From assembly GCF_022539665.2 (NCBI RefSeq), contig NC_081331.1:5642001-5706000 (forward strand): a DNA stretch of 64,000 nucleotides, in the 5' to 3' direction. The DNA comes from Daphnia carinata (lineage: Eukaryota). Shown one piece after another: positions 980 to 64,000 of this stretch (position 1 is its first letter; every line of letters starts with the position of its first letter). Position numbers and translations under genes: made by a program. The notes beneath the pieces were generated by a model. That model was not told the origin of the DNA and searched no databases. It saw only the letters and a program-made list of their open reading frames with translations.

Positions 980-1140
980 GGCAATCCGTTTTACCCAAAA
1001 TAAAAATAAAAAATATTGGCCTTTTGTTTCCTATTTACTGCTATCGCCATCTACCGGACATATTTCTAGTTAATTCTCTACGTACACTGACCGAAAACAA
1101 TTTTATGCCCGACTTTTCTCGGTCGGGGTTTTAAAAAAAT
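980..1140 (+). mobile_element. Left end of a GGCAATCC-TIR MITE, interrupted by the foldback element
   Basis: AT|GGCAATCCGTTTTACCC at 978-996; 990-1140 is an approximate reverse complement of ~6203-6337 and a direct copy of ~5902-6020. Confidence 0.7.
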
Positions 1141-1336
1141 GGCAATCCGTTTTACATTAAAAAAAAAGAAATGTCGGAAAAAAAAATCGCACTTTTTTCT
1201 TTTTTCCGACACGTAGCCATCTACCGCTGAGAATCGTTATTACTGGCGTAGGCAATTTCAGTCCATTGGATGCCATTCGCAGTTAGTTCAGTAGCGTGGA
1301 TGGAGAAAAACGCGTGGCTGGAGGAACAATTGAAAA

Positions 1337-2304
1337 ATGGATAAGATAATACAACAAAAGGATGGTAAGTATAAACATTATTATAGTGGTTTTCAATTAT
1401 TAATTATTGTTTATTAGATCAAATTATGAAGCTGCAGGCCCAATTATTGGAACAACACAAAATATTAGATACTGGTTGATCGGCCTATCTAGGAACAAAC
1501 ATTTTCCTTTTTCCCATTCAGGCTGTGAGACAAATTTGATTGTTTGTTATAACTACAACAACATTCCCTGCATAACGAAGGGAATGTTTACATTTTCTTT
1601 AGTGAACTTTTCCCTGAACTGTTGCCTGAAGTTAAAAATGTTTTGGAATATTTGGTTGGAGTTACGCTGATAATATTCAGTTGCAGTAATTGGATCTTGT
1701 CCTCTTTCTTGAGCAGCGTTTTGCCTTTTCAGCCATCGAAGAGGTGCTCAAAGATTATTAATTTTCTATCAATGACTGTCATTTGCCAAACATGTCTTCT
1801 TAAATAATTTGGTAATTGATTGATGGTTTCTAGATCATGAGTTTATTAAACAAAATATAATGGCCCCTAAAGATGTTTCATTTCGTTGGCATTGCAGCGA
1901 TGAACATCATACGTGGACTTTTTAGGTATGAAAGGAATTTTCTTGAAAATTTTTTGAATTTATGACAAAGCATTTCTCCTGCTTTTTGCCAACCATGTCT
2001 AATCTAAAAAAAAAATTTATCCAATAGGAAAGGATTTTCAGCATACTGGGAACACAACTATCAACAATGCAACATTCTAGGGGTGCTATTTTATCATTCA
2101 AGAGCCTTATACAATGATTTTCATCTGCAATTTGTATGGCCTTTCCCAAGCTTCTGCCAGAAGTTGAATCTATAAGGCATGTAAGTCACATGAGCAACAA
2201 TTGAAATGCTTAATGGTGTTGGTTTTCTTTTCTCAGCATAGGTTAATAGTAACATTGGATCTGAAAAGATTCTTGGTTGGGGCAAGACACTGAATAAATT
2301 GTAA
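1337..2304 (+). pseudogene. Decayed spliced gene in left arm of foldback copy 1 (internally deleted or replaced)
   Basis: ATG 1337 MDKIIQQKD|GTAAGT intron|DQIMKLQAQLLEQHKIL; resumes near 1858 and ends ...FPKLLPEVESIRH|intron|VNSNIGSEKILGWGKTLNKL*. Contains in-frame stops. Confidence 0.5.
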
Positions 2305-3054
2305 TGATTGAATGGATGACATGACATTTCTATACTTCATTCGGATTCCCGAGACGGTATTTTATATTTAAAAAATTGAAGTGCATATCTGGGCTCCCTT
2401 CCTTTCCGTAGCCCCGTTTCCCCTTGACTCGTAATAAGCCCGTAGGGGGTCATGCCCCTACTGTACGGTATATATAAAAACAACATATACCGAGGTTTGG
2501 AGGGCTCTGGCCGGAAAGGGGACGTGGGGGTCCGCTTAGTCCGATGATGTGTTCACGGAGGGCGACGTGGCTACCCACAAATCCGAACTAAAGGTTAATC
2601 GCTCCTGTAAAAATGTTCCAAATCTTCAGCTCTTCTTCCGGCTTCTCTTAGCCAATCACCGGGTAATCTCCCCGGTGGGTCAACAAGGCAGTGTCTCCCC
2701 CTGCCTGGGTTGACGGCAACTTTTGAAAGGGCTATTATGCCTTTTTAAAGTTGCAAAAATAATTGTAATGTGCAGAGAATTGTCAATAAAATTTTTTTTA
2801 TAAAATATTTTATCCAAAATTTGTTTCTTTCATTGTATGTTTTAGCCGTGTTCACACATTACATTTATCAACTTTTTTTTTTCTGCGCATTATTTGTTTT
2901 TGTCAACATTGATGGTAAGCATTGTTTCCATTGGTTTATCGTTTATCTGTAAGTATTCAATTATTATTTATTACACTCTTTGAATTTTTCCACTTAGATT
3001 CAAGGAACAACATGTAATATCTGGATATTTTTTAAAGTAATTTTGTACTTTGTT

Positions 3055-3127
3055 TTACCCGTATGGGAACCGATCCCCAGACATTCAGCGTGCAACGCCG
3101 ATGCTCTAACATTGAGCCACGAGATAT
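3055..3127 (-). pseudogene. tRNA-like unit 1 in foldback spacer (TGC at anticodon position)
   Basis: Minus strand GTG-GCTC-AATGTTA-GAGC-A-TCGGC-GTTGCAC-GCTGA-ATGTC-TGGGGATCGGTTCCCA: D arm and anticodon arm pair; T loop and acceptor stem are degenerate. Confidence 0.6.
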
Positions 3128-3222
3128 ATCTAAATATTTTATTATCGCATATTATATGTTATCGTCTAGGATGTTTATGCAGTCTTTCACAACTATATGT
3201 TTATCTTTCTATTTCTTTCATA

Positions 3223-3294
3223 AGGTTCATAGCTCTGTGGTAGAGCCTTCAGTTGCGATACCTGTTACCCTGGGATCAAACCTCAGTAGATGTG
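3223..3294 (+). pseudogene. tRNA-like unit 2 in foldback spacer (tRNA-Cys-like 5' half)
   Basis: CATAGCTCTGTGGTAGAGC...CTGGGATCAAAC; the copy-2 version reads TAGCTCTGTGGTAGAGCATTCAGCTGCA, close to the metazoan tRNA-Cys(GCA) 5' half. Anticodon stem is broken. Confidence 0.55.
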
Positions 3295-3410
3295 TAAAAA
3301 ATGAAGTACAATAAATGTAGAAGAGTATATTGCAGAATTGCATTTCCTTTTTATTCTAAGTGTAAATGCAAGTCCACAAGTAACTAGAAAAAAGCCAACT
3401 TGACATCATA

Positions 3411-3481
3411 TGATTCATGGCTCATTGGTAGAGCATCGGCGCGGTATGCCGAACATCCAGGGTTCGATCCCTGTATAATAA
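3411..3481 (+). pseudogene. tRNA-like unit 3 in foldback spacer with good Pol III A and B boxes
   Basis: TG-GCTC-ATTGGTA-GAGC-A-TCGGC-GCGGTAT-GCCGA-ACATC-CAGGG-TTCGAT-CCCTG: D, anticodon and T stems pair; A box TGGCTCATTGG, B box GGTTCGATCC; weak acceptor stem and no U33. Confidence 0.65.
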
Positions 3482-4135
3482 TAGAATACTAACATATAAA
3501 TGATAAACCAATGGAAACAATGCTTACCATCAAAGTTGACAAAAACAAATAATGCGAAGAAAAAAAAAAAGTTGATAAATGTAATGTGTGAACACGGCTA
3601 ACACATACAATGAAAGAAACAAATTTTGCAAAAAATATTTTATAAAAAAATTTTTATTGACAATTCTCTGCACATTACAATTATTTTTGCAACTTTAAAA
3701 AGGCATAATAGCCCTTTCAAAAGTTGCCGTCAACCCAGGCAGGGGGAGACACTGCCTTGTTGACCCACCGGGGAGATTACCCGGTGATTGGCTAAGAGAA
3801 GCCGGAAGAAAAGCTGAAGATTTGGAACATTTTTACAGGAGCGATTAACCTTTAGTTCGGATTTGTGGGTAGCCACGTCGCCCTCCGTGAACACATCATC
3901 GGACTAAGCGGACTTCCACGTCCCCTTTCCGGCCAGAGCCCTCCAAACCTCGGTATATGTTGTTTTTATATATACCGTACAGTAGGGGCATGACCCCCTA
4001 CGGGCTTATTATGAGTCAAGGGGAAACGGGGCTTCAGAAAAGAAGGGAGCCCAGATATGCACTTCAATTTTTTAAATATCAAATACCGTCTGGGGAATCC
4101 GAATTAAGTATAGAAATGTCATGTCATCCATCCAA

Positions 4136-5534
4136 TCAATACAATTTATTCAGTGTCTTGCCCCAACCAAGAATCTTTTCAGATCCAATGTTACTATTAA
4201 CCTATATTGAGAAAAGAAAAACAACACTGTTAAACATATCAATTGTTGATCATGTAACTTACATGACTCATAGATTCAACTTCTGGTGGAAGCTTGGGAA
4301 AGGACATACAAATTGCAGATTAACATCATTGTATAAGGTTCTTGAATGATAAACTAGCACCTGTAGAACGTTGCATTGTTGATAGTTGTGTTCCCAGTAC
4401 ATGAAAATCCTTGCCTATTGGATAAATTTTTTTTTGGTTGATTAGACCTGGTTGGCAAAAAGGAGGAGAAATTCTTCGTCATAAATTTAAAATTATTTGA
4501 AGAAAAATCCTTTCATACCTAAAGAGTCCATGTATGATGTTCATCTCTGCAATGGCAGCAAAATTAAAACATCTTTAAGGCCATTTAAGTACCCAATTTC
4601 CCCAACACTCTGAACATAAAGGACAAGTTGTTCTTTAGACAGAGAAGCAGAATTATTTGAGGCTTCTAGCTGTGACAGAACTATAAAGGATTGCTGTTGT
4701 ACTGGATTCATTAACACAAGATGGTACTTCTCATTAGGCAATTTGCATTACTCTATTAATTTACCTCACACCTTAACGGTAATGCACTCTCAGTGTTTTT
4801 TCATCTGTAGGCTCACTCTTCCATCCTGTAACACTTCCAGACTTGACTTGATCCCCCCGCTAAAATTCTGTGAATGCAAAATAATAGCATTAAAAATACT
4901 TTTTCGATAGACAAAGAACGGGGAAGTACCTAATCCATGTTTTAGGTTGAACTCATGCCATTTCTGTGTTTCCATACCACACCCATTTTCCGCCCAAATA
5001 CAGTACCACAATTCTTCAGTTCCTTCGCTGCATGGACTTATTACTAACAATTCTTTTAGTGCAGCACTAACAGAATTTAAATTTAACACACTGTCAGGTG
5101 GTGGACTGAATAACTAAACAATAAATAATTGTTTGTTAAAATTCTATACTTATTTGGAATTCTTATTTGGAAAGTTTAGGCACCTGACTGTGTTCACCTA
5201 ATGCCAACTCATCCTCACGTTCAGTTAGGGATGAGTTTTGAAAAACCTCCTTCACTGTTTGGAAACTGTTTTGTTCCAATTTCTTCTTTTCCCCTAGCTG
5301 AGCTTGTAGACTCAAAAATTTGAGCTACAAAACACGAATGAATAAAAGCAAATAAATAGAATCATTACGTATTAGGCCTACCATCCTTAGCTTCGTTGTT
5401 ATCTAATATTTTGTGTTGTTCCAATAACTGGGCCTGCAGCTTCATTATTTGATCTAATAAACAATAATTAATAATTGAAAACCAATATAATAATGTTTAT
5501 ACTTACCACTTTTTTGTTTTATTATCTTATCCAT
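4136..5534 (-). pseudogene. Decayed spliced gene in right arm of foldback copy 1
   Basis: Reverse-strand copy of the arm gene with ATG at 5534 and the same GT-AG intron positions; ORF-track fragments 4790-5089 and 4541-4741 are parts of it. Confidence 0.55.
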
Positions 5535-5901
5535 TTTTCAATTGCTCCTCCAGCCACGCAGTTTTCTCCAGCCACGCTGCTCAATTGAATGCTAATGGCA
5601 TACAATTAACTGAAATTGCATACATACTTGTAATAACGAAACCGACGGGTAGATGGCTACGGGTGGAAAAAAGAGAAAAAAGTGTGATTTTTTTTTTTTC
5701 CGCCATTTTTTTTTTTTTTCCATGTAAAACGGATTGCCATATCTATTGGTAAAGTACTCAGTTTTACTTCACTGAACGGCTCACGATGTTCAAGAAATTA
5801 GGGGCTTGAAAATAAGACCGACAAAATAAATAAGCCCGATTTTTCCCAAACAAAAGTTGGCGCGCCAGTACGGTACAGCGCGCTTGTAGAAAACAGCGTA
5901 T

Positions 5902-48925: not shown

Positions 48926-49155
48926 ATTATGGCAATCCGTTTTATATGGCAATTCGTTTTACACCAAAAAAAAAAAAAGTTCGCCAAAAAAAAAAAAAAA
49001 AATCACACTTTTTTCTTTTTTTTCCGACACGTAGCCATCTACCGCTCAGACTCGTTATTACTGGCGTAGGCAATTTCAGTCCATTGGATGCCATTCGCAG
49101 TTAGTTCAGTAGCGTGGATGGAGAATAACGCGTGGTTGGAGGAACAATTGAAAAA

Positions 49156-50552
49156 TTGATAAGATAATACAACAAAAGATGGTAAGTATAAACATTATTA
49201 TATTGGTTTTCAATAATTAGTTATTGTTTATTAGATCAAATTATGAAGCTGCAGGCCCAATTATTAGAACAACACAAAATATTAGAGAACAGCAAAGCTA
49301 AGGATGGTAAGGCCTAATACGTAATGATTCTATTTATTTGCTTTTATTCATTCGTGTTTTGTAGCTCAAATTTTGAGTCTACAAGCTCAGCTAGGGGAAA
49401 AAAACAAATTGGAACGGAACTGTTCCCAAAACAGTGAAGGAGGTTTTTCAAAACTCATCCCTAACTGAACATGAGGATGAATTGGCATTAGGCGAACACA
49501 GCCAGGTACCTAAACTTTTCAAATAAGAATTCAAAATAAGTATATAATTTTAACAAACAATTATTTATTGTTTAGTTATTCAGTCTACCACCTGACAGTG
49601 TGTTGAAGTTAAATTCTGTTAGTGCTGCACTAAAAGAATTGTTAGTAATAAGTTCATGCAGCGAAGGAAGTGAACAATTGTGGGACCGTATTTGGGCTGA
49701 AAATGGGTGTGGTAAGGAAATCCAGAAATAGCACGAGTTCAACATAAAACATGAATTAGGTACTTTTCGGTTTTTTGTCTATCAAAAAAGTATTTTTAAT
49801 GCTATTATTTTGCATTCACAGAATTTTAGTGGGGGATCAAGTCAAGTCTGGAAGTGTTACAGGATGGAAGAGTGAGCCTACAGTTGAAAAACACTGAAAG
49901 TGCATTACCATTAAGGTATGAGGTAAAGTAATAGAGTATGCAAATTGTCTAATGAGAAGTACCATCTTGTGTGAATGAATCCTGTGTAACAGCAATCCTT
50001 TATAGTTCTGTCACAGCTAGAAGCCTCAAATAATTCTGCTTCTCTTGCTAAAGAACAACTTGTCCTTTATGTTCACAGTGTTGGTGAAGCTGGGTACTTA
50101 AATGGCCCTAAAGATGTTTTAATGTTGCTGCTGTTGCAGAGATGAACATCATACATGGACTCTTTAGGTATGAAAAGAATTTTCTTCAAAATTTTTTGAA
50201 TTTATGATGACGAAGCTTTTCTCTTCCTTTTTGCCAACCAGGTGTAATCTACAAAAAAAAAAAAATTTTATCCAATAGGAAAGGAATTTCAGCATACTGG
50301 GAACACAACTATCAACAATGCAACATTCTAGGGGTGCTATTTTATCATTCAAGAGCCTTATACAATGATTTTCATCTGCAATTTGTATGGCCTTTCCCAA
50401 GCTTCTGCTAGAAGTTGAATCTATAAGTCATGTAAGTCACATGAGCAACAATTGAGATGCTTAATGGTGTTTTTCTTTTCTCATTGTAGGTTAATAGTAA
50501 CATTGGATCTGAAAAAATTCTTGGTTGGGGCATGACACTGAATAAATTGTAA
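49156..50552 (+). pseudogene. Decayed spliced gene in left arm of foldback copy 2 (most complete version)
   Basis: GT-AG introns at 49182-49234, 49307-49364, 49506-49575, 49760-49821, 50432-50489 (53-70 bp) separate coding-like segments; ATG mutated to TTG; several stops and frameshifts. Confidence 0.6.
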
Positions 50553-51224
50553 TGATTGAATGGATGACATGACATTTCTATACTTCATTCGGATTCCCGA
50601 GACGGTATTTTATATTTAAAAAATTGAAGTGCATATCTGGGCTCCCTTCCTTTCCGTAGCCCCGTTTCCCCTTGACTCGTAATAAGCCCGTAGGGGGTCA
50701 TGCCCCTACTGTACGGTATATATAAAAACAACATATACCGAGGTTTGGAGGGCTCTGGCCGGAAAGGGGACGTGGATGTCCGCTTAGTCCGATGATGTGT
50801 TCACGGAGGGCTCTGTGGCTACCCACAAATCCGAACTAAAGGTTAATCGCTCCTGTAAAAATGTTCCAAATCTTCAGCTCTTCTTCCGGCTTCTCTTAGC
50901 CAATCACCGGGTAATCTCCCCGGTGGGTCAACAAGGCAGTGTCTCCCCCTGCCTGGGTTGACGGCAACTTTTGAAAGGGCTATTGTGCCTTTTTAAAGTT
51001 GCAAAAATAATTGTAATATGCAGAGAATTGTCAATAAATTTTTTTTTTTTAAAATATTTTTTGCAAAATTTGTCTCTTTCATTGTCTGTGTTCGCTGTGT
51101 TCACACATTACATATATCGCCTTTTTTTTTAATTAGCTTGCTCAATTCACCTATATTGTTTTATGCCAGCTTTGTTGGTAACCATTGTTTCCATTAGTTT
51201 ATCGTTTATCTGTAGGCATTCAAT

Positions 51225-51647
51225 TATTATCCAGGGATCGAACGCTGGATGTTCGGCATACCGCGCCGATGCTCTACCAATGAGCCATGAATCATATGAT
51301 GTGAAGTTGGCTTTTTTCTAGTCACTTGCGGACTTGCATTTACACTTTGAATAAAACTGAAATGCATTACTGCAATATTCTTTTCTCCATTTAGATATAG
51401 ATCTTTATACATCTAGTAAGTTTTGAACCCAGGGTAACAGTTATTGCAGCTGAATGCTCTACCACAGAGCTATGGACCTTACGAAAGCAATAGAAAGATA
51501 AACATATAGTTGTGAAAGACTGCAGAAACATCCTAGACGATAACATATGATATGCGCTAATAAAAATTTTAAATATATCTCGTGGCTCAATGTTAGAGCA
51601 TCGGCGTTGCACGCTGAATGTCTAGGGATCGATTCCCATGCCAGTAA
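51225..51647. pseudogene. Three tRNA-like units in the copy-2 spacer
   Basis: Unit 3 at ~51225-51294 (-), unit 2 at ~51409-51479 (-), unit 1 at ~51576-51647 (+); homologous to 3411-3481, 3223-3294 and 3055-3127. Confidence 0.6.
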
Positions 51648-52387
51648 AACAACATATAAATACAAAATAACTTCAGAAAATATCCAGGTATTACACGTTG
51701 TTCCTTGTCTAAGTTCAAGAATTCAAAAAGTGTAATAATAATAATTGAATACTTACAGATAAACGATACAACGGTGGCAAAAACAATAAAGATGAATTGA
51801 GCAAGCTAAATAAAAAAAAATTGGTAATTGTAATGTGTGAACAAAGCGAACACAGACAATGAAAGAGACAAATTTTGCAAAAAATATTTTATAAAAAAAA
51901 ATTTATTGACAATTCTCTGCATATTACAATTATTTTTGCAACTTTAAAAAGGCACAATAGCCCTTTCAAAAGTTGCCGTCAACCCAGGCAGGGGGAGACA
52001 CTGCCTTGTTGACCCACCGGGGAGATTACCCGGTGATTGGCTAAGAGAAGCCGGAAGAAGAGCTGAAGATTTGGAACATTTTTACAGGAGCGATTAACCT
52101 TTAGTTCGGATTTGTGGGTAGCCACAGAGCCCTCCGTGAACACATCATCGGACTAAGCGGACATCCACGTCCCCTTTCCGGCCAGAGCCCTCCAAACCTC
52201 GGTATATGTTGTTTTTATATATACCGTACAGTAGGGGCATGACCCCCTACGGGCTTATTACGAGTCAAGGGGAAACGGGGCTACGGAAAGGAAGGGAGCC
52301 CAGATATGCACTTCAATTTTTTTAATATAAAATACCGTCTCGGGAATCCGAATGAAGTATAGAAATGTCATGTCATCCATTCAATCA

Positions 52388-53571
52388 TTACAATTTATTC
52401 AGTGTCATGCCCCAACCAAGAATTTTTTCAGATCCAATGTTACTATTAACCTACAATGAGAAAAGAAAAACACCATTAAGCATCTCAATTGTTGCTCATG
52501 TGACTTACATGACTTATAGATTCAACTTCTAGCAGAAGCTTGGGAAAGGCCATACAAATTGCAGATGAAAATCATTGTATAAGGCTCTTGAATGATAAAA
52601 TAGCACCCCTAGAATGTTGCATTGTTGATAGTTGTGTTCCCAGTATGCTGAAATTCCTTTCCTATTGGATAAAATTTTTTTTTTGTAGATTACACCTGGT
52701 TGGCAAAAAGGAGGAGAAAAGCTTCATCATAAATTCAAAAAATTTTCAAGAAAATTCCTTTCATACCTAAAGAGTCCATGTATGATGTTCATCTCTGCAA
52801 CAGCAGCAACATTAAAACATCTTTAGGGCCATTTAAGTACCCAGCTTCACCAACACTCTGAACGTAAAGGACAAGTTGTTCTTTAGCAAGAGAAGCAGAA
52901 TTATTTGAGGCTTCTAGCTGTGACAGAACTATAAAGGATTGCTGTTACACAGTATTCATTCACACAAGATGGTACTTCTCATTAGACAATTTGCATACTC
53001 TATTACTTTACCTCATACCTTAATGGTAATGCACTTTCAGTGTTTTTCAACTGTAGGCTCACTCTTCCATCCTGTAACACTTCCAGACTTGACTTGATCC
53101 CCCACTAAAATTCTGTGAATGCAAAATAATAGCATTAAAAATACTTTTTCGATAGACAAAAAACCGAAAAGTACCTAATTCATGTTTTATGTTGAACTCG
53201 TGCTATTTCTGGGTTTCCGTACCACACCCATTTTCAGCCCAAATACGGTCCCACAGTTGTTCACTTCCTTCGCCGCATGGACTTATTACTAACAATTCTT
53301 TTAGTGCAGCACTAACAGAATTTAACTTCAACACACTGTCAGGTGGTAGACTGAATAACTAAACAATAAATAATTGTTTGTTAAAATTCTATACTTATTT
53401 TGAATTCTTATTTGAAAAGTGTAGGTACCTGACTGTGTTCACCTAATGCCAATTCATCCTCATGTTCAGTTAGGGATGAGTTTGGAAAAACCTCCTTCAC
53501 TGTTTGGAAAGTGCCCTGTTCTAATTTGTTTTTTTCCCAGTAACTACTTAATTGTAGACTCAAAATTTGAG
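52388..53571 (-). pseudogene. Decayed arm gene in right arm of copy 2, first two exons deleted
   Basis: Near-exact reverse complement of 49365-50552. Confidence 0.55.
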
Positions 53572-54039
53572 CTAAAAAACACAAATGAGAAAAAAAAGAA
53601 AAAATTGTGATTTTTTTTTTTTGGGGGGGGGGGTAAAACGGATTGCCATAGTATTTAACAGTATTAAGCGTCGAATAAAAAATCAGTACCAACTTTCTAT
53701 CAAGAATTTTTACTGCAGACGATCCCCCAAACACTATAGCCACCTATTGGTACGATATTCAGTTTTCTGCATTGGGTTTCAGCGATCGTCCGGGGCAAGA
53801 CTAAGGGCTGTAGCAACTTTCACTTCTAATAATTCAAATGCCATAAGGTTCACGTGTAAAAGATATCAATTTTCGTAATCCTTGCTTAATTTAGCTTAAA
53901 ATACATTATTCCGATTTGAAATTGAACGCTGATCACGAATATCGGCTTTGTTTTGACATTGGGCATAACAAAACGGAGAAAAACGAAGAAAATGACCGTG
54001 GAAAAATTGCCTCAAAAACCGTCAAAAATTGACCATCGT

Positions 54040-54450
54040 TGGAATTGCTTGAAAATGCCAGAATATACTCAAAATCGAATACTGATTTCGAGAAAATTGC
54101 TATTTTTTTTCATAACATCAACAGTTTTGGAAAAACACCGAATTAAAATACGACTGGCGCGCCAGTACGCTACAGCGCTAGCATGACACATCAAAGTTAT
54201 TCAATTCGATATATTTCCAAAACGATGATCTAATAAGCAATAATAAATAATTTAAAACCAATATAATAATCTTTATACTTACATCCTTATCTTTTATTAT
54301 CTTATCCATTTTTAAATATTTTTCTCCAGCCACGCGTTTTTCTCCAGCCACGCTACTCAACTCACTGCCATTGGGATCCAATGGACTCAAATTGCCTACA
54401 TGCCTGTAATAACGAGTCTGACCGGTAGATGGCTACGGTCGAAAAAAAAA
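54040..54450 (-). mobile_element. Diverged fragments of the same transposon families
   Basis: 54050-54182 resembles the reverse complement of 6036-6190; 54225-54450 is a diverged reverse copy of the foldback subterminal region including the MDKIIKDKD exon. Confidence 0.65.
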
Positions 54451-54871
54451 GAATTTATATATTTTTAACTAAGTCTCAAATTTAGCCAAAATGAGACAAT
54501 AATTAGTAGGCATAAATGTGAAGAGATTGGGGGCTTCTTTTAATCTTTACCTTAATTCATATAGAAGCCTTTTCCCTAACCTGGTAACATAAAGGTGAAG
54601 CAAAACTTTTTTCCCTACCAATCAACAGAACAATATCATTGATCAAATTCAATTGATGGAATTGATGAAGCAACACGTCAATGAAAGTTTATCACCGTTT
54701 CGGTTTATTATTGAAATTGCACAAAGAGAACTGAATTCTTTTGGAAGTCCGACATCGCCACTGTGATGAATACACGGTTGCTTTCTTCAGGTAAAACAAT
54801 TATACCCCCCAATTTTATGGTAAACGTGAAATTCTGAATCGCTTGTGAAGTTCTAGTTTTAACATACTTCT

Positions 54872-57800
54872 TTAGTCCGGTGGTATATTAGAAGAAGTTG
54901 CGTCGTCATTATGTGACGTGTTTTCTTTGTTGATACCCATTCTTTTCAAAAACGATTTGGCCCAGTTAGTTGTTAATTTAACAGGGCCACCAAATTCTGG
55001 TAAAAGAGATGGCTCTTTTTGGAGGAGAACCTTAGTATAAAAAGACATATTGATCAGAAGCAGAATCACAAGCAACGGTAATCTGTGAAAGTACCTGGCG
55101 GGCAGTAGCCATAGCGACAAACGCGTTGACACGTTCTCCGGAGCGTTTGAGTTCCCGAATGCATTCCTGAACGGCTTCGTCGTGCGGTCCTAGACGGAGT
55201 GGTCTTCCGCGGGGAAGTACGTTCAGGTTGGTGATTTGTTCTTCGGAAGTCCTCTGCTGTGCAACGTATTTGTCTCGCAATCCTCGGACTGTGCTCTCAG
55301 GAATTTCGTGGCCTACTCTTTCCTTAAAAAGTGAAAACAATCAACTTACGAAGTGCGTACTCAGAAGAAATTCTTTTACGTACTTTGAAATAATCTGCTG
55401 CTTCTTGACATCCATACTCGGCTGCAAAGCGTCCAATTTCTAAACGAAATTGTGGAGGGTACGTCGCATAGCTACCTCGACCATTTTTTTTTGACGTTTT
55501 AGTTTTCTGAGCTGGCATCTCATGTCGAACGGATGTTTGAACAGCGGGATTTAATTCAAGCGGTGGAGGAGGAGGAGGAACAATCGCTGGGGAAGGAGTT
55601 CTAGGAACAGGAAGGCAAGTGGACGTGGGAGGATTTTCCGAAGGATGGTGAACTATGGACGCTGAAACGTCAGAACACTCTTCATTCCAGTTCCTTGAAT
55701 ACGCTGGTAGCTGGACAGAGCTAAAAGATGGCTGATATTGGGGAGGTGGTGGCAAAGAACTGTAGGACGGATAAGGGGGGACTGGCTGGGACATCACATG
55801 GTACATGTTCTGGTGTTGGTTATGGTAGTTGTTTGCTGACTGATGACCGACATACATGTGTGTGTTGGTGTAGTGCCCATAAGGTTGGTGATAGTAACCA
55901 GCGTCCGGATGTTGCTGAAGAACTGGTAAAGAGGAAGGAGGGGCGACCGATGAAGGTGGTGAAGGGGGAGGAGGTGGAGGATGCATAGATGATGCTGACG
56001 AAAGCTTACGACGAAGCTCTGATGCTGGGGTCCCAAATATTTTTTTGAATTTCCGCACCGTGCTTTCTTTTACAGAGAATTGCAATTTGTCACTGAAATG
56101 CTGCACAGCTGCTGGTACTCCATGTACAGCCGCATATTTTCCAATTTCTTCTCGGACTGAGGCGCAAAATAGATGGCGTGCGAGTGATATCGATTTCCGT
56201 GATCCACTGAAAATGTACACCCCAATGAAAACAAGTTTTAACAGAAAAACTAAGTAGTTACCTATGATCAAGTTGATTGGCTGGAGTCATACGGAGATAC
56301 ATACGACGAAACTTTCTTATTAAGGAGATGCTGATCGTTTTTTCCAACTTAGTTGAATAAAGCTTTTGGGTAGCGTCAAGCCCACATTCTGCAGCATGGC
56401 GTCCAATTTCTGCCTTAAGTTGAGAACTGAATGCATGGTGGGCCTGAACGAAATTCCTAACACTGCTGTAGCTCACCGGGAAACCTGATTATTGTTAAAT
56501 GTGCAGCAAAGCGTAATGATTTTACACGAAGGATGCCCAACATACTACCTAGAGAGGTACTGAAAGTGCGTGCGGCATTGTGAGTACCATGACGCATGGC
56601 ATGTATTGCGATTGCTTCCTTCATTTCAGGAGTGTAGCGGTGATATTCACCCCGCTTATGACCTTCATTTCTTGATTTGCGCACATCCTTTGTTTGGGCG
56701 ATTAAAGCTCTAACGGCGGCTACGGCAGTCGAAGTAGACGTTCTGTTGTCCAAAGATGGGTTTGCGGATGTATCATCTGTTTCATGGAGCGTGCTCCCAG
56801 CGCCCAACATCCGATGTTTTAAGTTAGACCTCCGCGTCAATCGGTTTTCACTAGATGATGTTTCGTCACATGGGGGACAATCGAACAATTTCGATTTTTT
56901 CCGTGTTTTTGGGAATAGATTTCCGGCATCGCTTGTTTTCGTAAAACAGCGTTTGGATATGGTGTCCAACGCCGAAGTGTTTTTGACAATCTCGTTCCTT
57001 AACTGGAAATTGAACAAATAGTTGCAATCATTTCCTCCTAACATTATGAAGTCTACAACATTACCTTCCATAACCAACCGAGTATCGTTGGTCGTTTGTG
57101 CCAATCATTAGGATGTTCCGCTAGATACGTGTCTATTCTTGTTTTAATATTGGCATCAAACTCAGCAGATTCCTTCTCCGAGAATTTTAAGTGGGTTTCC
57201 GCATTTAGAACAGTAGCTGTTTCTGTCGCAGAAATCAGCTTGGTGAACCTTAGTGATAATTAATCAGTCAATCAACTATCCTTTACTTTTACTGATAATC
57301 ATAGTATCTTACTCTCCTTTGAGTTCCATGAATTCAAATGAATTCAATCCATACACTGTGCATATAGCTACACCATAGCTGCACAAATTTTCAAACAAGA
57401 ATTCAGCCATGTCATAAGAACTAGGTTTGATTGCTGCTACTGAAATCCAAAAGGATACTGGATCATAAAGTATCAACAGCAAGAACTTCTCTTGAGAAGA
57501 TTGATTTGGTTTGATTTGATGAAATTCAATTTCAGTCCAAGGAGACGTAACTTTGTTTGGTTTCACAAGGTGAAGAGTTGTTGTGGAATTTGACTTACAC
57601 ACCATACAATTTTGGACATATTCGGTTATGCTTTTATAAGAGTATCTCCAAAAATGTGTTTGCTGTAACATCCTGTGCATTTTTTTAACTCCATTGTGAA
57701 AGCCTAAGATTATAAGCATGTTAAGCACTCCTTTATGTATCCTATTCACACTTACCTTTAGTTCCATCAACATGAATCTGTTCTAAAATTGAAGCTTTAG

Positions 57801-58080
57801 CATTCTTATCGAGTACAACTTTTCGAGGTTTGCGCCTACCATAGTACAATTCTCCATTTTTCAGCTTCAAAGAATTAGCATAAGAATTATGAAATAACAA
57901 CTGTATATGAGATGCAAAAAAAACACAATAGCATACGAAATAATTTGCGGCTTGTGTTCTGATCCATTGGGCTTTTGTGCTGGTATTGATGTTCACCCCA
58001 GTTGGATCTTCAAGATAACGAAGAATTTCTACATAATACTTTTCGTTGTCTAATTCGTGGTCATCATTAAAACACGCCAT
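54872..58080 (-). CDS. Chimeric protein: degenerate Gypsy/Ginger-like integrase plus four transposase-type HTH repeats (~904 aa)
   Basis: Exons 57937-58080, 57756-57864, 57313-57703, 57065-57248, 56549-57002, 56262-56484, 55384-56206, 55095-55322, 54872-55030 total 2715 nt in frame. H2C2 motif IHVDGTKGFHNG...FW...YVQNCMVC; repeats of the type YPPQFRLEIGRFAAEYG.....F.......ESTVR. Confidence 0.8.
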
Positions 58081-58822: not shown

Positions 58823-59088
58823 CTATAATTAATATTTTCTGTTTTCTGAAAATTAGGGAAAAGACAAATGTCGAAGGAGCCGACGATACATTCGTTGCTC
58901 TTCGATTTCCACGGTTGTTTTTTTATTAAAAACCTAGTTACACATGTCAAGGAAATTATTACAAACGAGTTTCTGTTTTCAAATTCCTGAGGTTAAATAC
59001 TTACACACTTGGCAACTGTAATTTGTAAACCAATTGCTTGAAAGTTTGATTAATGAATCCATAAAATCTATTCTGGAGCTTGTTTTCA

Positions 59089-62000
59089 TTACAAAGTCGA
59101 GCTTCGGTGATGCACCGGCGCCCTTCGCAAGGCTTTACTTTTTACGTGATCTTGCAGACTTTGCACTGTTTTACGAAGCTCTGCTTCATCGTGAACGTAA
59201 AACACCCTAATATGTTGTGTGACTCGAGGGTGGTCTTTGATTTTCTTAAGAGCATGCATTAGACACCAAGTTACAGGTGAATCTGCTTTGGAATGGCATT
59301 CAGCTCGCGAAAAGAAGAGACTAGCTTGGCATATTTCACACTCCATTTCACCGTCATCAGTGACAGAAGTCTGCCGTCGCTTTTTCCCATCTTTTGAGCT
59401 CGACTCAGTCGTAACTGGCAACTTCCGCCACTGCTGAACACCAAAGTCTCTTAGACTGGATCGCAGTTGAATTTCCTCGTCAATGTCCGGTTTCAATATG
59501 GGTAGGACACGTTTCAAGACGTTGACAGTTGAGCGAGTGTCATGAGCGATACTCCAAAGTAACTGCTGCAAAGAGAAAACAGTGGGTTCGTTGTTGATTC
59601 TAAGTTCTTTGAAACAAGCGTCCCCAATAGAAAGCCAATCCATAGGAGCGAAGCAGACGCTTTCCGAAACGCTATAACCTGTGAGTAAACAAACAAATTT
59701 GTTTTTAAATCCCATATTTTGACTTAGATTTTCTGTATGCTCTAAACCATACCTGTAGACAGCGAAGAAGTAAACGCGCGTGGCCATACGACAACAAACT
59801 GGCCAGACTTTTGTATGGTGCGACTCAGGCTGACTTTCTGATCGGCTAACATCGTAGGAGGAACCATGACAGTATCTGAAGACAACCAGACGGATTTGTC
59901 ACCCTTTACGAGATCCGGAACAAGCTTATTCATGGCTTGATGTAAAACAGATTCCTGTAGTGAAGGCACTCCGTACCTGAGATAGCCCAAAATAGTGTTT
60001 AGAATATACTTAACTTTATGATTAAACTGGTAGATTGCTAAGTTACCATATTTTATCTGCCCCAGTGTGCAAATAATCAATCCATGGAAGGCCATGAGGG
60101 TCACGGTACCAACACGAGGCACTGAAAAGCATACTGACGTGTAGCGTGGGAACAGTGCAACCCGGAACGGGACCAAGACTGCGTAAAACCGATCCATTAT
60201 TGTTGGTTAACACTACATGATAAACAATTTAAAAAAAAAAGAGAATGAGAAAAAAGGGATAATCACATAGCTCTGGCTCAATCTTTTTACAAAAATACCT
60301 TTTAAGTTCCATGGATGTCTAGATGTCTTGTTGCAAGGAAATCCATAACCAGACTGGCCTGAATCGATGTTACCAGAATGGACACACACATGTGCAGCAC
60401 GTCTTGTGACTAGCTTCCAATAAGCGGCTTCCACCTGCAATAATAATCTCTTTGCTTTGGGAATGCTTAGAAGTTATGTTTTTTTTACCTGCGCTGGTTC
60501 TAAATCAGATGCATCAGTGGCTGATGAATTAGCATTGGGAAACCAAATCGATAAAGTATTGCGCGCAATACGATAAAACGTACTCAGTGACATACTGCTG
60601 CCCTTAACGACGCATTCGTTTTCATCTTCGTCATCAGTTAAATGTCGGTTCTTCTGGGATTCAATCTTGTGCATTAGTTTTTTGCGCTCTTCGTCCGATA
60701 GAGTCGCATAAGGGAGCAGGTACTTGCAATAGATAGAGTCCAATTTTGAAAAACGATCGTGGGCACCTTGAGGAATCTGGGGTTGGACATTGAAGAAAAA
60801 AGATTTTATTAAATGTTTCAAAAGACAATCGGATTGAGATGTGGATTACTTTCAATGTCTCTGCAACTTTAGACCACAAATCGTTCTCGAGGACGTGTCC
60901 TGGACCTCCTAAATCTTGGACAGCTTCATAGAGGCCAGGGAGATCTACTTCGATGCCACCAATGCAAGGGGGCGGTTGGTAATCTATGTTGAGTTCTCTA
61001 AGATGACGGTGAATGGCTTCTAAAATACACGAGTTTGTGCCTCTCCGGCGAAACATTCGATGAACATATTGGTTGTTGGCAGTGAAACGCATTCCATCTG
61101 CTACTTGGCACTCGGGTTTGAATGAAGCTGGAGGAACTATGCGGCAGATGCCAAAGCGTTCACATTCATTTTGAATTTTCTCTAAATATTCGATGGGGTC
61201 ATTAAACTCTTTTTCGTCCGGATGGAAAACGGGTGCATCGATCAACGAACTCAGGTCATAATTTAATGGGGGAGTTTCCACCGTCCTCTTGATATTGGTA
61301 GGTCGCTTGCGGGTGTTGGCCTCCGATTTTACTATGTTGGTGGATTTAGTATTTTTGGTTTCCAATCGCGCTGGCTTTTTTGTATTTGTTTCTTGCGCTT
61401 GGCTCAATGATTTCTTCCTCGTCATAATTGCTCGTGCACCGCGAGTGTCATCTTTCTTTGTTTTGCTAGACGAAGTTTTGGTACAACGAGTAGGATCAAA
61501 TGATCGCGTTCTTATACTGCGAACAGGTGCATCGTCTTCGCTTGACGAAGAAGATAAAGAGCGCAAAGAAGAAGAGAGTGAGGATGATGAATCGTCCTTT
61601 TCAGAATCTGAACTGTCGCTGGAGCTCTGCGATTCTGTGAAACGTTTGGCTGCTTCTTGCAAGATAGTTGATCGACGTTTTGCACGACTGCTTGACAATT
61701 CAGCACTGTTTCTTTTTCCTCGAACAACAGGAGATGGCGACGGGTGCGGTTTCGAATTGCGTTCAACAGGAATCCGACTTTTCTTCTTAGGGGGTGATTT
61801 CTGTTCGTCTTCCAAACATTGAAGTATATTGTGATCGTCTAATTCGGATGAATAAAATTCTTCTTCCTGACCGATAAGCGTCATAAAGAATGTGGCAGCT
61901 TCTTTAGTTCGTCGTGATGGACGTCGCGTTGGGGAAGCAACGACTGGGGGGCTTTTGAGTCTTTTAGATGATTCTCGAGTCTGTTTTGCTGCTACAGTCG

Positions 62001-63284
62001 ATTTAACTGTGTCAGAATCCGATACCAAGTTTTTGTTTTTTTCCCTCAACATCGTTGTTTTCGAATTTTCTTTGATAGATGAGACTTTTGACTTCTCGTT
62101 AACAGAAGAGCGTTTCGATTCCGAATCCAATGGCTTTCGTTGTAAGTGAACAGATTCGGCTTTAGCAGGGTCTTTGGAAGCTTTTTTTGGCGGATGATTA
62201 GATGCTACCACAGTTTTTAAAGACTGACGAGTATTTTTGCTCACGGGGACGCTGGGATTCTCCGCCTTGTTACGGATTCGAGTTTTCATTGTCACAGGTT
62301 CTAAGTTTGAAGTTATTTTCTTGGCGGATAAGGTACGATTGTTTTGCGACAGTTTTCTTTTTTTCACAGTAGCAGAAGATGGAGTTGGCCCATCTGAGCT
62401 TTCTGCATCCGAATCTGAATCGCCGTTAGATGACGCTGAACTCGAACTGGACTGAAATTTTGCATTTCGTAACTGCGAACGGGTGGATACTCTCTTCGGC
62501 AAGGGACTTGCTTTACGAACCTTTTTATTTTTATGAGTTAGGTTTCTCGAGGTTTTGGAAGCCGAAAGATCTGTGCAAGATTTCATAAGACCCATACGAG
62601 TCATTATTCCGGAATTGACGATAGTTTTGCGAAAGCTGGAATGAATCCGGCCAACTGAGATTTTTGTTTGATTAACATTAGGTATTTTCTTTACTTGTGA
62701 TGTTTGTTTAAGTGGCTTTGATTTGGAAGCCATTGGCAGTTTGGCTTCTGCCTGTTTCAGATCAACTTTGCTGCAAATTTCTTGCTTGGTAATTGTGCTT
62801 CCAGATGGAATGACAGGCTCTGAAGAGGGAACTCCATTAGGGAAATTGTGATGTACAGGATCCCCAAAATAGTTTAAGGAACTTGGAAGAAAATTTGGGC
62901 AACTTCGAAAACACAAAAATTCTAAAAAATCTTCAGTCTTCGGGCAAACGTCCGGAACAACATAATTTGCTGGGTCATTATATGTAGAACCAGGTGCAGT
63001 TGATTGATTTGTTTGGTATGTTGATCCACTTTCCTTTTCTCTGTCTTTTAAAAGGGTAAAACTTGGACTTCCTTGAGCAAATTTTCGTTGTGCATGCACT
63101 TTAGTTCTGAAAAGAAAAAAAAAGAATTTTTGCAATTGAAAACTATGCCTTCAATGGGACAACTTACGTAAAGGTAAACAATATATAGCAAAATCAAAAA
63201 GTACTTTCTCTCTTCTGTCATCCCACCAGACTCTCTCAGCTCTGCCACTTTTGTTTTCTTTTTCAGCAACATAATGGCACACAT
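59089..63284 (-). CDS. JARID2: Jumonji/ARID protein JARID2
   Basis: N-terminal [11 protein letters not shown]; JmjN ([18 protein letters not shown]...FGICRIVPP); ARID ([14 protein letters not shown]...WSKVA...YCKYLLPY); JmjC with WYRDPHG lacking the first Fe-binding His; C5HC2-like CEIC...CLMH. Start uncertain (63284 or 63272, or an upstream exon). Confidence 0.92.
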
Positions 63285-64000
63285 AAAATTAATTTACATA
63301 AAGGAAAAGATCAAACATCTTCAGCTAAAAACAACTTCGTGCCAACACTCGAATATACCACCACTAGATATAATGGAAAACTAAAGGAAGTTTTTATGTC
63401 AGTGAGTTTACGCGCGACTTGGCTGTTCCATACGGCGCAACGCATAAACAAAGTAGTTCTGCCGACGTTGCCGCTTTGCTTGTGCCCGTCAATCAACCCA
63501 ATCTACAAACTAATTTGGGGATCTGCCCCGCGTAAATCGGGTAGTTTTTTGGTCGATTGGTTTGGTTGTTTTGGGTTTCGGTGAGATTCTGCAGGTTTCG
63601 GTGCATCTTTTTCCTACCCATAAGCATTCAAATTGCTTATGGAGAGGACGAGTCGAAAAGAAAAATCGAGAAAAAGAAAAATTCGATTACGAATCCTGGC
63701 TACTGGATAGCAGTATCACAATGTTTTTTTCCCCCTGATCTTGCACGATTTAGTTAAGGGCGTTGTTTGGAAAATGACTGGGCTTCGAGTGAGTTTCGTT
63801 ACGTTTCGGAAGTCCACACGTTCCTCGTGCCATTGCGAAAAGGAAAAAAAAATGGTTTGCTAGACAAGAAATAACATAACGGTGAAATCAACATCGTCAA
63901 ATCTTGGAACTAACACATTCCATCCTTCATGCCATGAAAGACGTCTATTTCAGGTCGTTGGATCTATCGCCGGCCACTGAAGATTAACAGTTACCAGAGC

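What the first reader, a model, noticed from the sequence alone, without database searches (positions are those of the whole stretch)
54872..58080. Candidate doubly domesticated gene: dead retroelement-type integrase fused to DNA-transposase DNA-binding domains
Seen: uninterrupted ~904 aa frame over nine exons with short introns and no LTR, RT or flanking TIR. N-terminal third follows integrase order: H2C2 zinc motif, PWTEIEFHQ (first catalytic Asp position reads His), LILYDPVSFWI, FENLCSYG..CTVYG (second Asp lost), HPNDW. Known: GIN1/Ginger-like genes derive from such integrases. Inference: a host chimera from two transposon classes acting as a transcription or transposon-control factor.
Basis: partly seen in the sequence, partly recalled or inferred. 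Interest (0 to 1): 0.8.

Follow-up and report, generated by a model that had tools for sequence, protein, structure and literature searches.

The report
Ancient gene built from two transposons
This spliced water-flea gene, shared with crayfish, barnacles and insects, joins an integrase that has lost its cutting residues to DNA-binding domains of a second, unrelated transposon family, and it likely works as a gene regulator rather than as a jumping element.

Summary
A minus-strand gene of nine exons encodes 904 aa, identical to Daphnia carinata LOC130691442. RNA-type contigs of a close relative show the questioned 57065/57002 junction in 8 of 8 runs laid. The N-terminal third is an integrase (YPYY-type segment, H2C2, core) with no catalytic triad. 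The rest holds four HTH repeats and a Tc5-type HTH that match DD35D pogo transposases, cut off before their catalytic core. The same architecture occurs in decapods, barnacles and four insect orders, under purifying selection in daphniids, with trees that follow host groups. It is a fixed pancrustacean gene, not a transposon. One correction: the integrase sits nearer RT-less Ginger1-like proteins than the Gypsy Pol rows sampled, so both donors are probably DNA transposons. It also groups with dead-integrase zinc-finger genes of molluscs and a brachiopod, so the first domestication may be protostome-old (moderate support). It is not Imagin, and nine literature searches found no description. The likely role is sequence-specific DNA binding with the zinc/integrase part as a scaffold; this is inferred, untested. 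SCAND3 is a precedent for multi-transposon genes.

The parts
54872..58080 (-). Whole coding span, nine exons, 904 aa (D. carinata LOC130691442)
   Evidence: junctions
57937..58080 (-). Exon 1 (aa 1-48): start of the YPYY-type segment; RNA contigs extend to about 58165 (5' UTR)
57597..57774 (-). H-x7-H-x29-C-x2-C integrase zinc motif (H79, H87, C117, C120), split by intron 2
56976..57542 (-). Integrase-like RNase H core (aa 139-285) without the catalytic triad, exons 3-5
56811..56879 (-). Decayed C2H2 finger (aa 318-340; the CxxC is kept, the first His is lost); intact in 19 of 28 full-length family proteins
56438..56651 (-). HTH repeat 1 (aa 394-443), split by intron 5
56291..56437 (-). HTH repeat 2 (aa 444-492)
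56032..56178 (-). HTH repeat 3 (aa 512-560)
55480..56031 (-). Pro/Ser/His-rich linker (aa 561-744), predicted disordered, poorly conserved across the family
55263..55476 (-). HTH repeat 4 (aa 746-796), first half of the pogo-type bipartite DNA-binding module, split by intron 7
54935..55211 (-). RGRP linker and Tc5/CENP-B-type HTH (aa 814-884), the most conserved part; the protein ends 20 residues later, without a DDE_1 core
58900..63300 (-). Neighbouring JARID2-like gene (JmjN, ARID, JmjC, C5HC2); also adjacent to the orthologue in daphniid-like locus L014, there on the other side

Best explanation
It is a spliced, conserved host gene of crustaceans and insects that joins a catalytically dead integrase, likely from a Ginger1-type DNA transposon, to the DNA-binding region of a pogo-type transposase, and its protein likely acts as a sequence-specific DNA-binding regulator of transcription. 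Shown: one transcript, loss of both donors' catalytic parts, conservation of the architecture, purifying selection. Inferred steps: (1) HTH4 plus the Tc5-type HTH grip DNA as in CENP-B, with the RGRP linker in the minor groove; (2) HTH1-3 are duplicates of HTH4 that add a second DNA contact; (3) the zinc-bound YPYY/H2C2 domain and the acidic dead core serve as an oligomerisation or cofactor-recruiting scaffold, as the related motif does for repression by ZBTB11. Order of assembly, inferred: integrase plus C2H2 first, pogo cassette second.
For: Transcript. Orthologues with both ends in 15 named species: 3 Daphnia, 3 decapods, 2 barnacles, 7 insects (Odonata, Phasmatodea, Blattodea, Hemiptera). 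Of 20 arthropod rows all keep H-H-C-C, 0 keep the first Asp, 1 has Asp at the second place, 1 has Glu at the third, none has two. Of 28 full-length proteins 27 keep RGRP, 26 end within 30 residues of the Tc5 HTH, 0 continue into a pogo core. Mean identity across 20 family rows: Tc5 66%, HTH4 57%, HTH1 50%, zinc domain 35%, core 27%, linker 18%. pN/pS 0.165 over 520 codons against L002 (0.058 in HTH4+Tc5), 0.19 over 349 codons against L001, about 0.16 against the close relative (approximate). Both domain trees recover the family (integrase 100/99; C-terminal module 94/87) with host groups intact (Hemiptera 99/91 and 100/97). C-terminal module 38% identical over 151 aa to DD35D transposase P0180 (E 8e-26); best fold match of a family fragment is CENP-B bound to DNA (Foldseek E 0.022, prob 0.97); model of the whole protein matches PFV and Ty3 integrases (E about 1e-7). 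ZBTB11's HX6H-X29-CX2C motif is needed for TP53 repression (PMC5384227, passages).
Against: No binding, localisation or knock-down data exist; function rests on domain homology. The HTH repeats miss Pfam cut-offs (no hit in P0001; HTH_Tnp_Tc5 at E <= 0.1 in 8 of 25 members of A3) and the CENP-B fold match is above E 0.001. The nearest studied case, Imagin, is cytoplasmic, and Jerky's similar tandem HTHs bind RNA (PMC12863088). In Daphnia the core is the least conserved folded part (19% to other family rows; exon 4 ratio about 0.48), the core-end motif and the C2H2 finger are lost, and a D. magna isoform starts after the first two zinc ligands (P0034), so the integrase half may be dispensable there. 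Copy number could not be counted: no genome is held.
Confidence: 0.62

Rival explanations
1. Same origin, but the job is transposon or centromere control: the HTH modules still recognise pogo terminal-repeat-like sites and recruit silencing or organise repeats, as CENP-B-related proteins do.
For: The C-terminal pair is the transposase's own end-binding module and the most conserved part; pogo domains were repeatedly domesticated into CENP-B-related proteins, and Drosophila CAG likewise lacks the DDE core (PMC4231638, passages).
Against: A module kept at 57-66% mean identity across crustaceans and insects fits a stable host target better than a chase after changing transposon ends (inference). 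No target sequence was identified.
Confidence: 0.18
2. The protein is mainly an RNA-binding or cytoplasmic scaffold, for example in germ cells, using tandem HTHs as Jerky does and the dead integrase as Imagin may.
For: Imagin, another dead Ginger1 integrase of crustaceans, is cytoplasmic in oocytes; Jerky binds mRNA with tandem HTH motifs (PMC12863088).
Against: Basic clusters precede HTH4 and the finger in most orthologues (alignment) and a C2H2 finger is kept in 19 of 28; both fit nuclear DNA binding better (inference).
Confidence: 0.12
3. Origin rival: the integrase came from a Gypsy LTR retrotransposon, making this a retroelement plus DNA-transposon chimera.
For: Best solved-structure match by profile is Ty3 integrase (E 5.9e-14); some Gypsy lineages share the YPYY motif and cluster with Ginger1 (PMC2836005); in the core-only tree Gypsy rows fall among the RT-less rows, so that half does not separate them; RT-less rows could be Pol fragments.
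Against: 14 RT-less rows score 130-151 bits with the family integrase profile against 55-97 for 9 Gypsy Pol rows (biased by how rows entered the top 150); two of them carry the OTU or Ulp1 tails typical of Ginger1; family plus Gypsy Pol as one clade is rejected, p-AU 0.0016. No Ginger transposase turned up among the PDB hits, so the Ty3 match does not discriminate.
Confidence: 0.25
4. It is a composite or non-autonomous transposon, or a mis-joined gene model.
For: It changed side relative to the JARID2-like gene between two daphniid-like loci; a repeat element ends about 400 nt downstream.
Against: Single spliced contigs, no flanking repeats, purifying selection, host-like trees, and the 15 listed members of the 26-member D. 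magna/D. sinensis cluster carry one locus tag per assembly where a tag is given.
Confidence: 0.02

Closest known systems
Imagin (PMC12863088)
   Same: Crustacean host gene from a Ginger1-type integrase: YPYY, H2C2, core kept, DDE lost, introns, purifying selection.
   Different: Imagin is 585 aa, 3 exons, inside an MMUT intron, reported from malacostracans only, no HTH array. This gene is 800-1400 aa in most species, carries a pogo-type cassette and occurs in branchiopods, barnacles and insects. No Imagin sequence was available for direct comparison.
GIN1/GIN2 (PMC2836005)
   Same: Host genes from Ginger1 transposases with the same N-terminal anatomy.
   Different: Vertebrate; no second transposon domain described. 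The fish GIN-named row P0137 falls in a different clade from this family.
SCAND3/ZBED9 (PMC3575427)
   Same: Host gene assembled from more than one mobile element (gag-derived SCAN, Ginger2 integrase, hAT transposase).
   Different: Mammalian and far younger; different donors; described as keeping well-preserved transposase cores, whereas here both catalytic parts are disabled or cut off and the DNA-binding part is multiplied.
ZBTB11 (PMC5384227)
   Same: Integrase-like HHCC zinc motif of nearly the same spacing used in a transcriptional repressor.
   Different: Has BTB plus C2H2 array, no HTH cassette; not compared by sequence here.
CENP-B-related and Passer-derived genes (CAG, POGK; PMC4231638, PMC7386202)
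   Same: Bipartite pogo DNA-binding module; CAG also lacks the DDE core; Passer transposases have DD35D with BrkDBD + HTH_Tnp_Tc5.
   Different: None is reported fused to an integrase; here the first HTH is present four times.

Membership tests
Domesticated transposon gene | No terminal repeats or target-site duplication | tested here: met
   no bracketing repeat beyond chance-size matches within 1.5 kb
Domesticated transposon gene | Intact frame under purifying selection | tested here: met
Domesticated transposon gene | Expressed and spliced | tested here: met
   in a relative 90-95% alike; no run of the window's own organism was offered
Domesticated transposon gene | Orthologues in distant species, conserved neighbourhood | tested here: met
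   adjacent to JARID2-like gene in L014 but with order swapped; no shared neighbour in the other 19 loci, most of them short
Domesticated transposon gene | Single copy in the genome | not testable with these tools
   no genome held; one copy in the window; one locus tag per assembly among listed members
Ginger1 transposon (active) | YPYY motif and H2C2 finger | tested here: met
   H-H-C-C in 20 of 20 rows; YPYY-type segment read by eye in alignment A1, clearer in decapods than in Daphnia
Ginger1 transposon (active) | DDE triad | tested here: not met
Ginger1 transposon (active) | GPY/F motif and OTU or Ulp1 tail | tested here: not met
   no such Pfam hit; the C2H2 finger follows the core end within about 45 residues; GPY/F pattern recalled and judged by eye
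Ginger1 transposon (active) | 40-270 bp TIRs, CCGG/CCGT TSD, several copies | tested here: not met
   for repeats; copies not countable
Ginger1-derived (descent) | Integrase nests among Ginger1 transposases | tested here: inconclusive
   apart from Gypsy Pol rows at 98/96 and p-AU 0.0016, but no curated Ginger1 references and only 5 Gypsy rows; core-only tree unresolved
Imagin | About 585 aa, 3 exons, nested in MMUT intron, no HTH array | tested here: not met
pogo transposase (Passer-like) | BrkDBD-type + HTH_Tnp_Tc5 DNA-binding pair | tested here: met
   38% to DD35D transposase P0180; Atlas neighbours Tc5/BrkDBD at 0.90-0.92; below Pfam cut-offs
pogo transposase (Passer-like) | DDE_1 core with DD35D | tested here: not met
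   0 of 28 continue into a pogo core
Transcription factor | Nuclear, sequence-specific DNA binding, effect on target genes | not testable with these tools
   needs experiments

The most novel reading that the evidence does not exclude
A Ginger1-type integrase was domesticated once in a protostome ancestor as a dead-integrase/C2H2 gene, which survives in molluscs and brachiopods with three H2C2 domains and a finger array; in the pancrustacean stem it captured a pogo DNA-binding region as an alternative terminal exon and multiplied its first HTH, giving an undescribed regulator built by serial capture of two transposons, with cockroach isoforms still switching between finger array and HTH cassette.
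Probability: 0.4. Interest if true: 0.75.

Novelty: new variant of a known kind. Interest (0 to 1): 0.58.

Why it matters
Few transposon domestications are documented in crustaceans and insects outside Drosophila. This one predates the split of branchiopods, barnacles, decapods and insects, so it is older than the 490-440 million-year malacostracan radiation cited for Imagin. It keeps only the non-catalytic parts of two different transposases, which makes it a clean test of what a dead integrase fold does for a host. It can be knocked out in Daphnia magna. If the link to the mollusc and brachiopod genes holds, it would be among the oldest integrase domestications described in animals and an example of a host gene swapping its DNA-binding part by capturing a second transposon.

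Tried and rejected
Whole-genome copy count: no genome held. Single-sequence PDB search found nothing (3 hits, E > 0.8); the C-terminal profile found nothing either. C2H2 fingers downstream of the HTH cassette in L011 looked like a retained array but lie behind a BTB-type reading frame of what appears to be a separate gene (BTB recognised from memory), so they are not used. Homology of the family's single finger with the first finger of the mollusc/brachiopod arrays: inconclusive, top rank in 2 of 7 proteins; the Periplaneta array shows no finger-by-finger match to them. No array found up to 4.5 kb downstream in insect-like loci L004 and L008. L002 selection values had a wrong exon boundary and are superseded. 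A second copy upstream of the JARID2-like gene was considered; none is seen up to the window edge. Dimer prediction for the dead core was not available, nor were the VIA fold searches or a second Atlas search, so oligomerisation is untested. Earlier scan findings: none returned. Absence in holometabolous insects, chelicerates and myriapods is not claimed: none was named among the hits, but most hits are unnamed and the searches are word-limited.

Full report
Gene model. The finding is a minus-strand gene of nine exons with eight GT..AG introns of 52-72 nt that reads as 904 aa without a stop. A search with exon 3 returned a protein identical to this model, NCBI's uncharacterized LOC130691442 of Daphnia carinata, and a 92% identical D. 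magna protein; D. sinensis has one too. No whole genome is held.

One transcript. I laid 8 of the 24 runs listed; all are assembled contigs of a relative 90-95% alike, from 6 studies, and only 2 are on record as RNA. All 8 skip intron 4 at 57065/57002, the junction between the integrase half and the HTH half; 6 of 8 show all eight joints; 5 of 8 hold one contig of 2.9-3.0 kb from the integrase exons to exon 9. One run lacks the intron 3 joint and one retains the in-frame intron 1. Since introns are missing these contigs are spliced products (inference).

N-terminal third. Pfam finds Integrase_H2C2 at 67-124 (E 7.8e-11) and no rve. A family profile matches Ty3 integrase over the whole region (E 5.9e-14) and PFV integrase, and an AlphaFold model (mean pLDDT 62, folded parts mostly 70-90) matches PFV and Ty3 integrases at E about 1e-7. 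Aligned with intact integrases, all 20 arthropod rows keep H-H-C-C; none keeps the first Asp, one has Asp at the second place and one Glu at the third, whereas 11 of 16 RT-less integrases and 9 of 9 Gypsy Pol rows keep all three. The columns labelled GPF in that script are the core-end TPF..MFGR motif, not the GPY/F module; it is kept in most orthologues and lost in Daphnia.

C-terminal two thirds. Four repeats of about 50 aa are predicted as three-helix units, and the last is followed by an RGRP linker and a Tc5-type HTH. This pair is 38% identical over 151 aa to the N-terminus of P0180, an unnamed 508-aa protein with a DDE_1 core and D-x35-D spacing. DD35D with BrkDBD + HTH_Tnp_Tc5 is the signature given for Passer-type pogo transposases (PMC7386202, passages), so 'Passer-like' is a fair label but not a tested placement. 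Atlas neighbours are Tc5/CENP-B/BrkDBD clusters at 0.90-0.92, and the best fold match for a family fragment is CENP-B(1-129) on DNA, at E 0.022 only. Repeat 4 is as close to the transposase HTHs (43%) as they are to each other (42%); repeats 1-3 are 29-36%.

Range and constraint. Proteins with both ends occur in 15 named species: three Daphnia, Cherax, Procambarus, Petrolisthes, Amphibalanus, Pollicipes, Ladona, Timema douglasi, Blattella, Clastoptera, Lycorma, Macrosteles and Rhynocoris, plus unnamed ones. Among 28 full-length proteins I selected, 27 keep the zinc motif, 19 a C2H2 finger after the core, 27 the RGRP, 26 end within 30 residues of the Tc5 HTH and none continues into a pogo core. 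The C-terminal tree of 40 rows holds the 18 family rows together (94/87; bootstrap not fully settled) with barnacles plus decapods at 97/92 and Hemiptera at 100/97. pN/pS is 0.165 over 520 codons against L002, which shares introns 5-8, and 0.058 in the last module (synonymous sites are near saturation, so the true ratio is lower), and 0.19 over 349 codons against L001. Against the close relative, exons 3-8 give about 0.16, an approximation that pairs nucleotide counts from contigs with residue differences from D. magna proteins; exon 4, the end of the dead core, is relaxed at about 0.48. Of 20 listed coding differences classed exactly, 17 are synonymous. The gene is next to a JARID2-like gene both here and in L014, though on opposite sides.

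Origin of the integrase. The profile search of 1.84 billion representatives returned, after the family, RT-less integrases, Gypsy Pol proteins and a set of mollusc and brachiopod proteins. In a tree of 47 rows (7 of 54 dropped as near-duplicates or gappy) the family is a clade at 100/99 and is separated from the five Gypsy Pol rows at 98/96; forcing family plus Gypsy Pol together is rejected (p-AU 0.0016). Two RT-less neighbours carry OTU or Ulp1 tails, the marks of Ginger1 transposases (PMC2836005, parts 1-3 of 5 read). That paper also says some Gypsy lineages share the YPYY motif, and my set has no curated references, so I put a Ginger1-type donor at about 70-75%.

A possibly older layer. 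The sister group in that tree (100/95) is eight rows with a dead integrase and three or four H2C2-type domains, seven of them with a C2H2 array; four were looked up and are from Lingula, Sinanodonta, Haliotis and Patella. Holding them with the RT-less rows and away from the family is rejected (p-AU 0.0043). Long-branch attraction is a real risk, as both groups lost catalysis; other dead rows such as the fish GIN-named P0137 do not join them, and both halves of the domain recover the link on their own, but weakly (62/68 and 71/90, 32 rows). A finger-level test was inconclusive. Periplaneta isoforms X2 and X3 join the integrase and first finger to a C2H2 array without HTHs, and the Blattella model has the HTH cassette followed by a related finger tail. 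In insect-like loci L004, L006 and L008 the whole cassette is one reading frame. This fits capture of the pogo region as an alternative terminal exon, but rests on gene models of two cockroaches.

How it likely works. Shown: no catalytic capacity by sequence, and the strongest conservation in the DNA-binding pair. Inferred: the basic HTH modules bind specific DNA; the basic zinc domain and acidic core form a scaffold. Precedent: ZBTB11 needs its integrase-like HHCC motif to repress TP53 (PMC5384227, passages). Rivals are transposon or centromere control in the manner of CENP-B relatives (PMC4231638, passages) and RNA binding as discussed for Jerky and Imagin (PMC12863088).

What is known. Imagin (PMC12863088; parts 1-3 of 8 and section 21 read) is a different gene; its text does not mention Daphnia, insects or copepods. 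SCAND3 is the precedent for a gene made of several mobile elements (PMC3575427, passages). A metazoan survey of transposon-derived factors has no Daphnia or H2C2 entry in text or five supplements (PMC10027918, passages). A screen of domain fusions (PMC12062965, passages) does not mention it in the text; its supplementary table was not opened and could list members. Nine library searches, one by locus tags, showed no description; the library lacks most subscription papers, including Marin 2010, which I did not see.

Verdict. Real, conserved and apparently undescribed; a new variant of a known kind. Interest 0.58.

Noticed in passing
window 1140-5740 and 48940-53600: Two copies, 91-92% alike, of a palindromic element of about 4.6 kb with arms up to 1.8 kb (97% complementary in the second copy) and almost no coding capacity; a 230-340 nt repeat flanks both and also lies at 54226-54453. 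Foldback- or MITE-like (label recalled).
   Followed up: partly
window 58900-63300 and L014:800-4968: JARID2-like gene lies upstream of the gene here but downstream of the orthologue in L014, same orientation: a local swap of order, unexplained.
   Followed up: partly
P0100, P0103, P0108, P0115, P0116, P0125, P0133, P0148: A gene family named here from three molluscs and a brachiopod, with a dead integrase, repeated H2C2 domains and mostly a C2H2 array; annotated as uncharacterized and not found in my literature searches.
   Followed up: partly
P0168 (Engraulis): Fish protein with three Integrase_H2C2 domains, THAP domains and a D-Tyr deacylase domain; another possible multi-transposon gene or a fused model.
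   Followed up: no
P0158/P0191 (Patella), P0169 (Capitella), P0107: Pogo-like proteins with altered catalytic motifs or repeated HTHs of the same type; possible independent domestications.
   Followed up: no
window 57865-57936; P0034, P0037, P0039, P0041: Intron 1 is in frame and retained in some contigs; D. magna records include an isoform starting after the first two zinc ligands and intron-retaining forms.
   Followed up: no
window 8000-46000: Ordinary host genes recognised from memory: porin/VDAC, clathrin heavy chain, a two-pore potassium channel, a Cu/Zn superoxide dismutase-like gene, a patched-related gene and a NASP-like gene.
   Followed up: no
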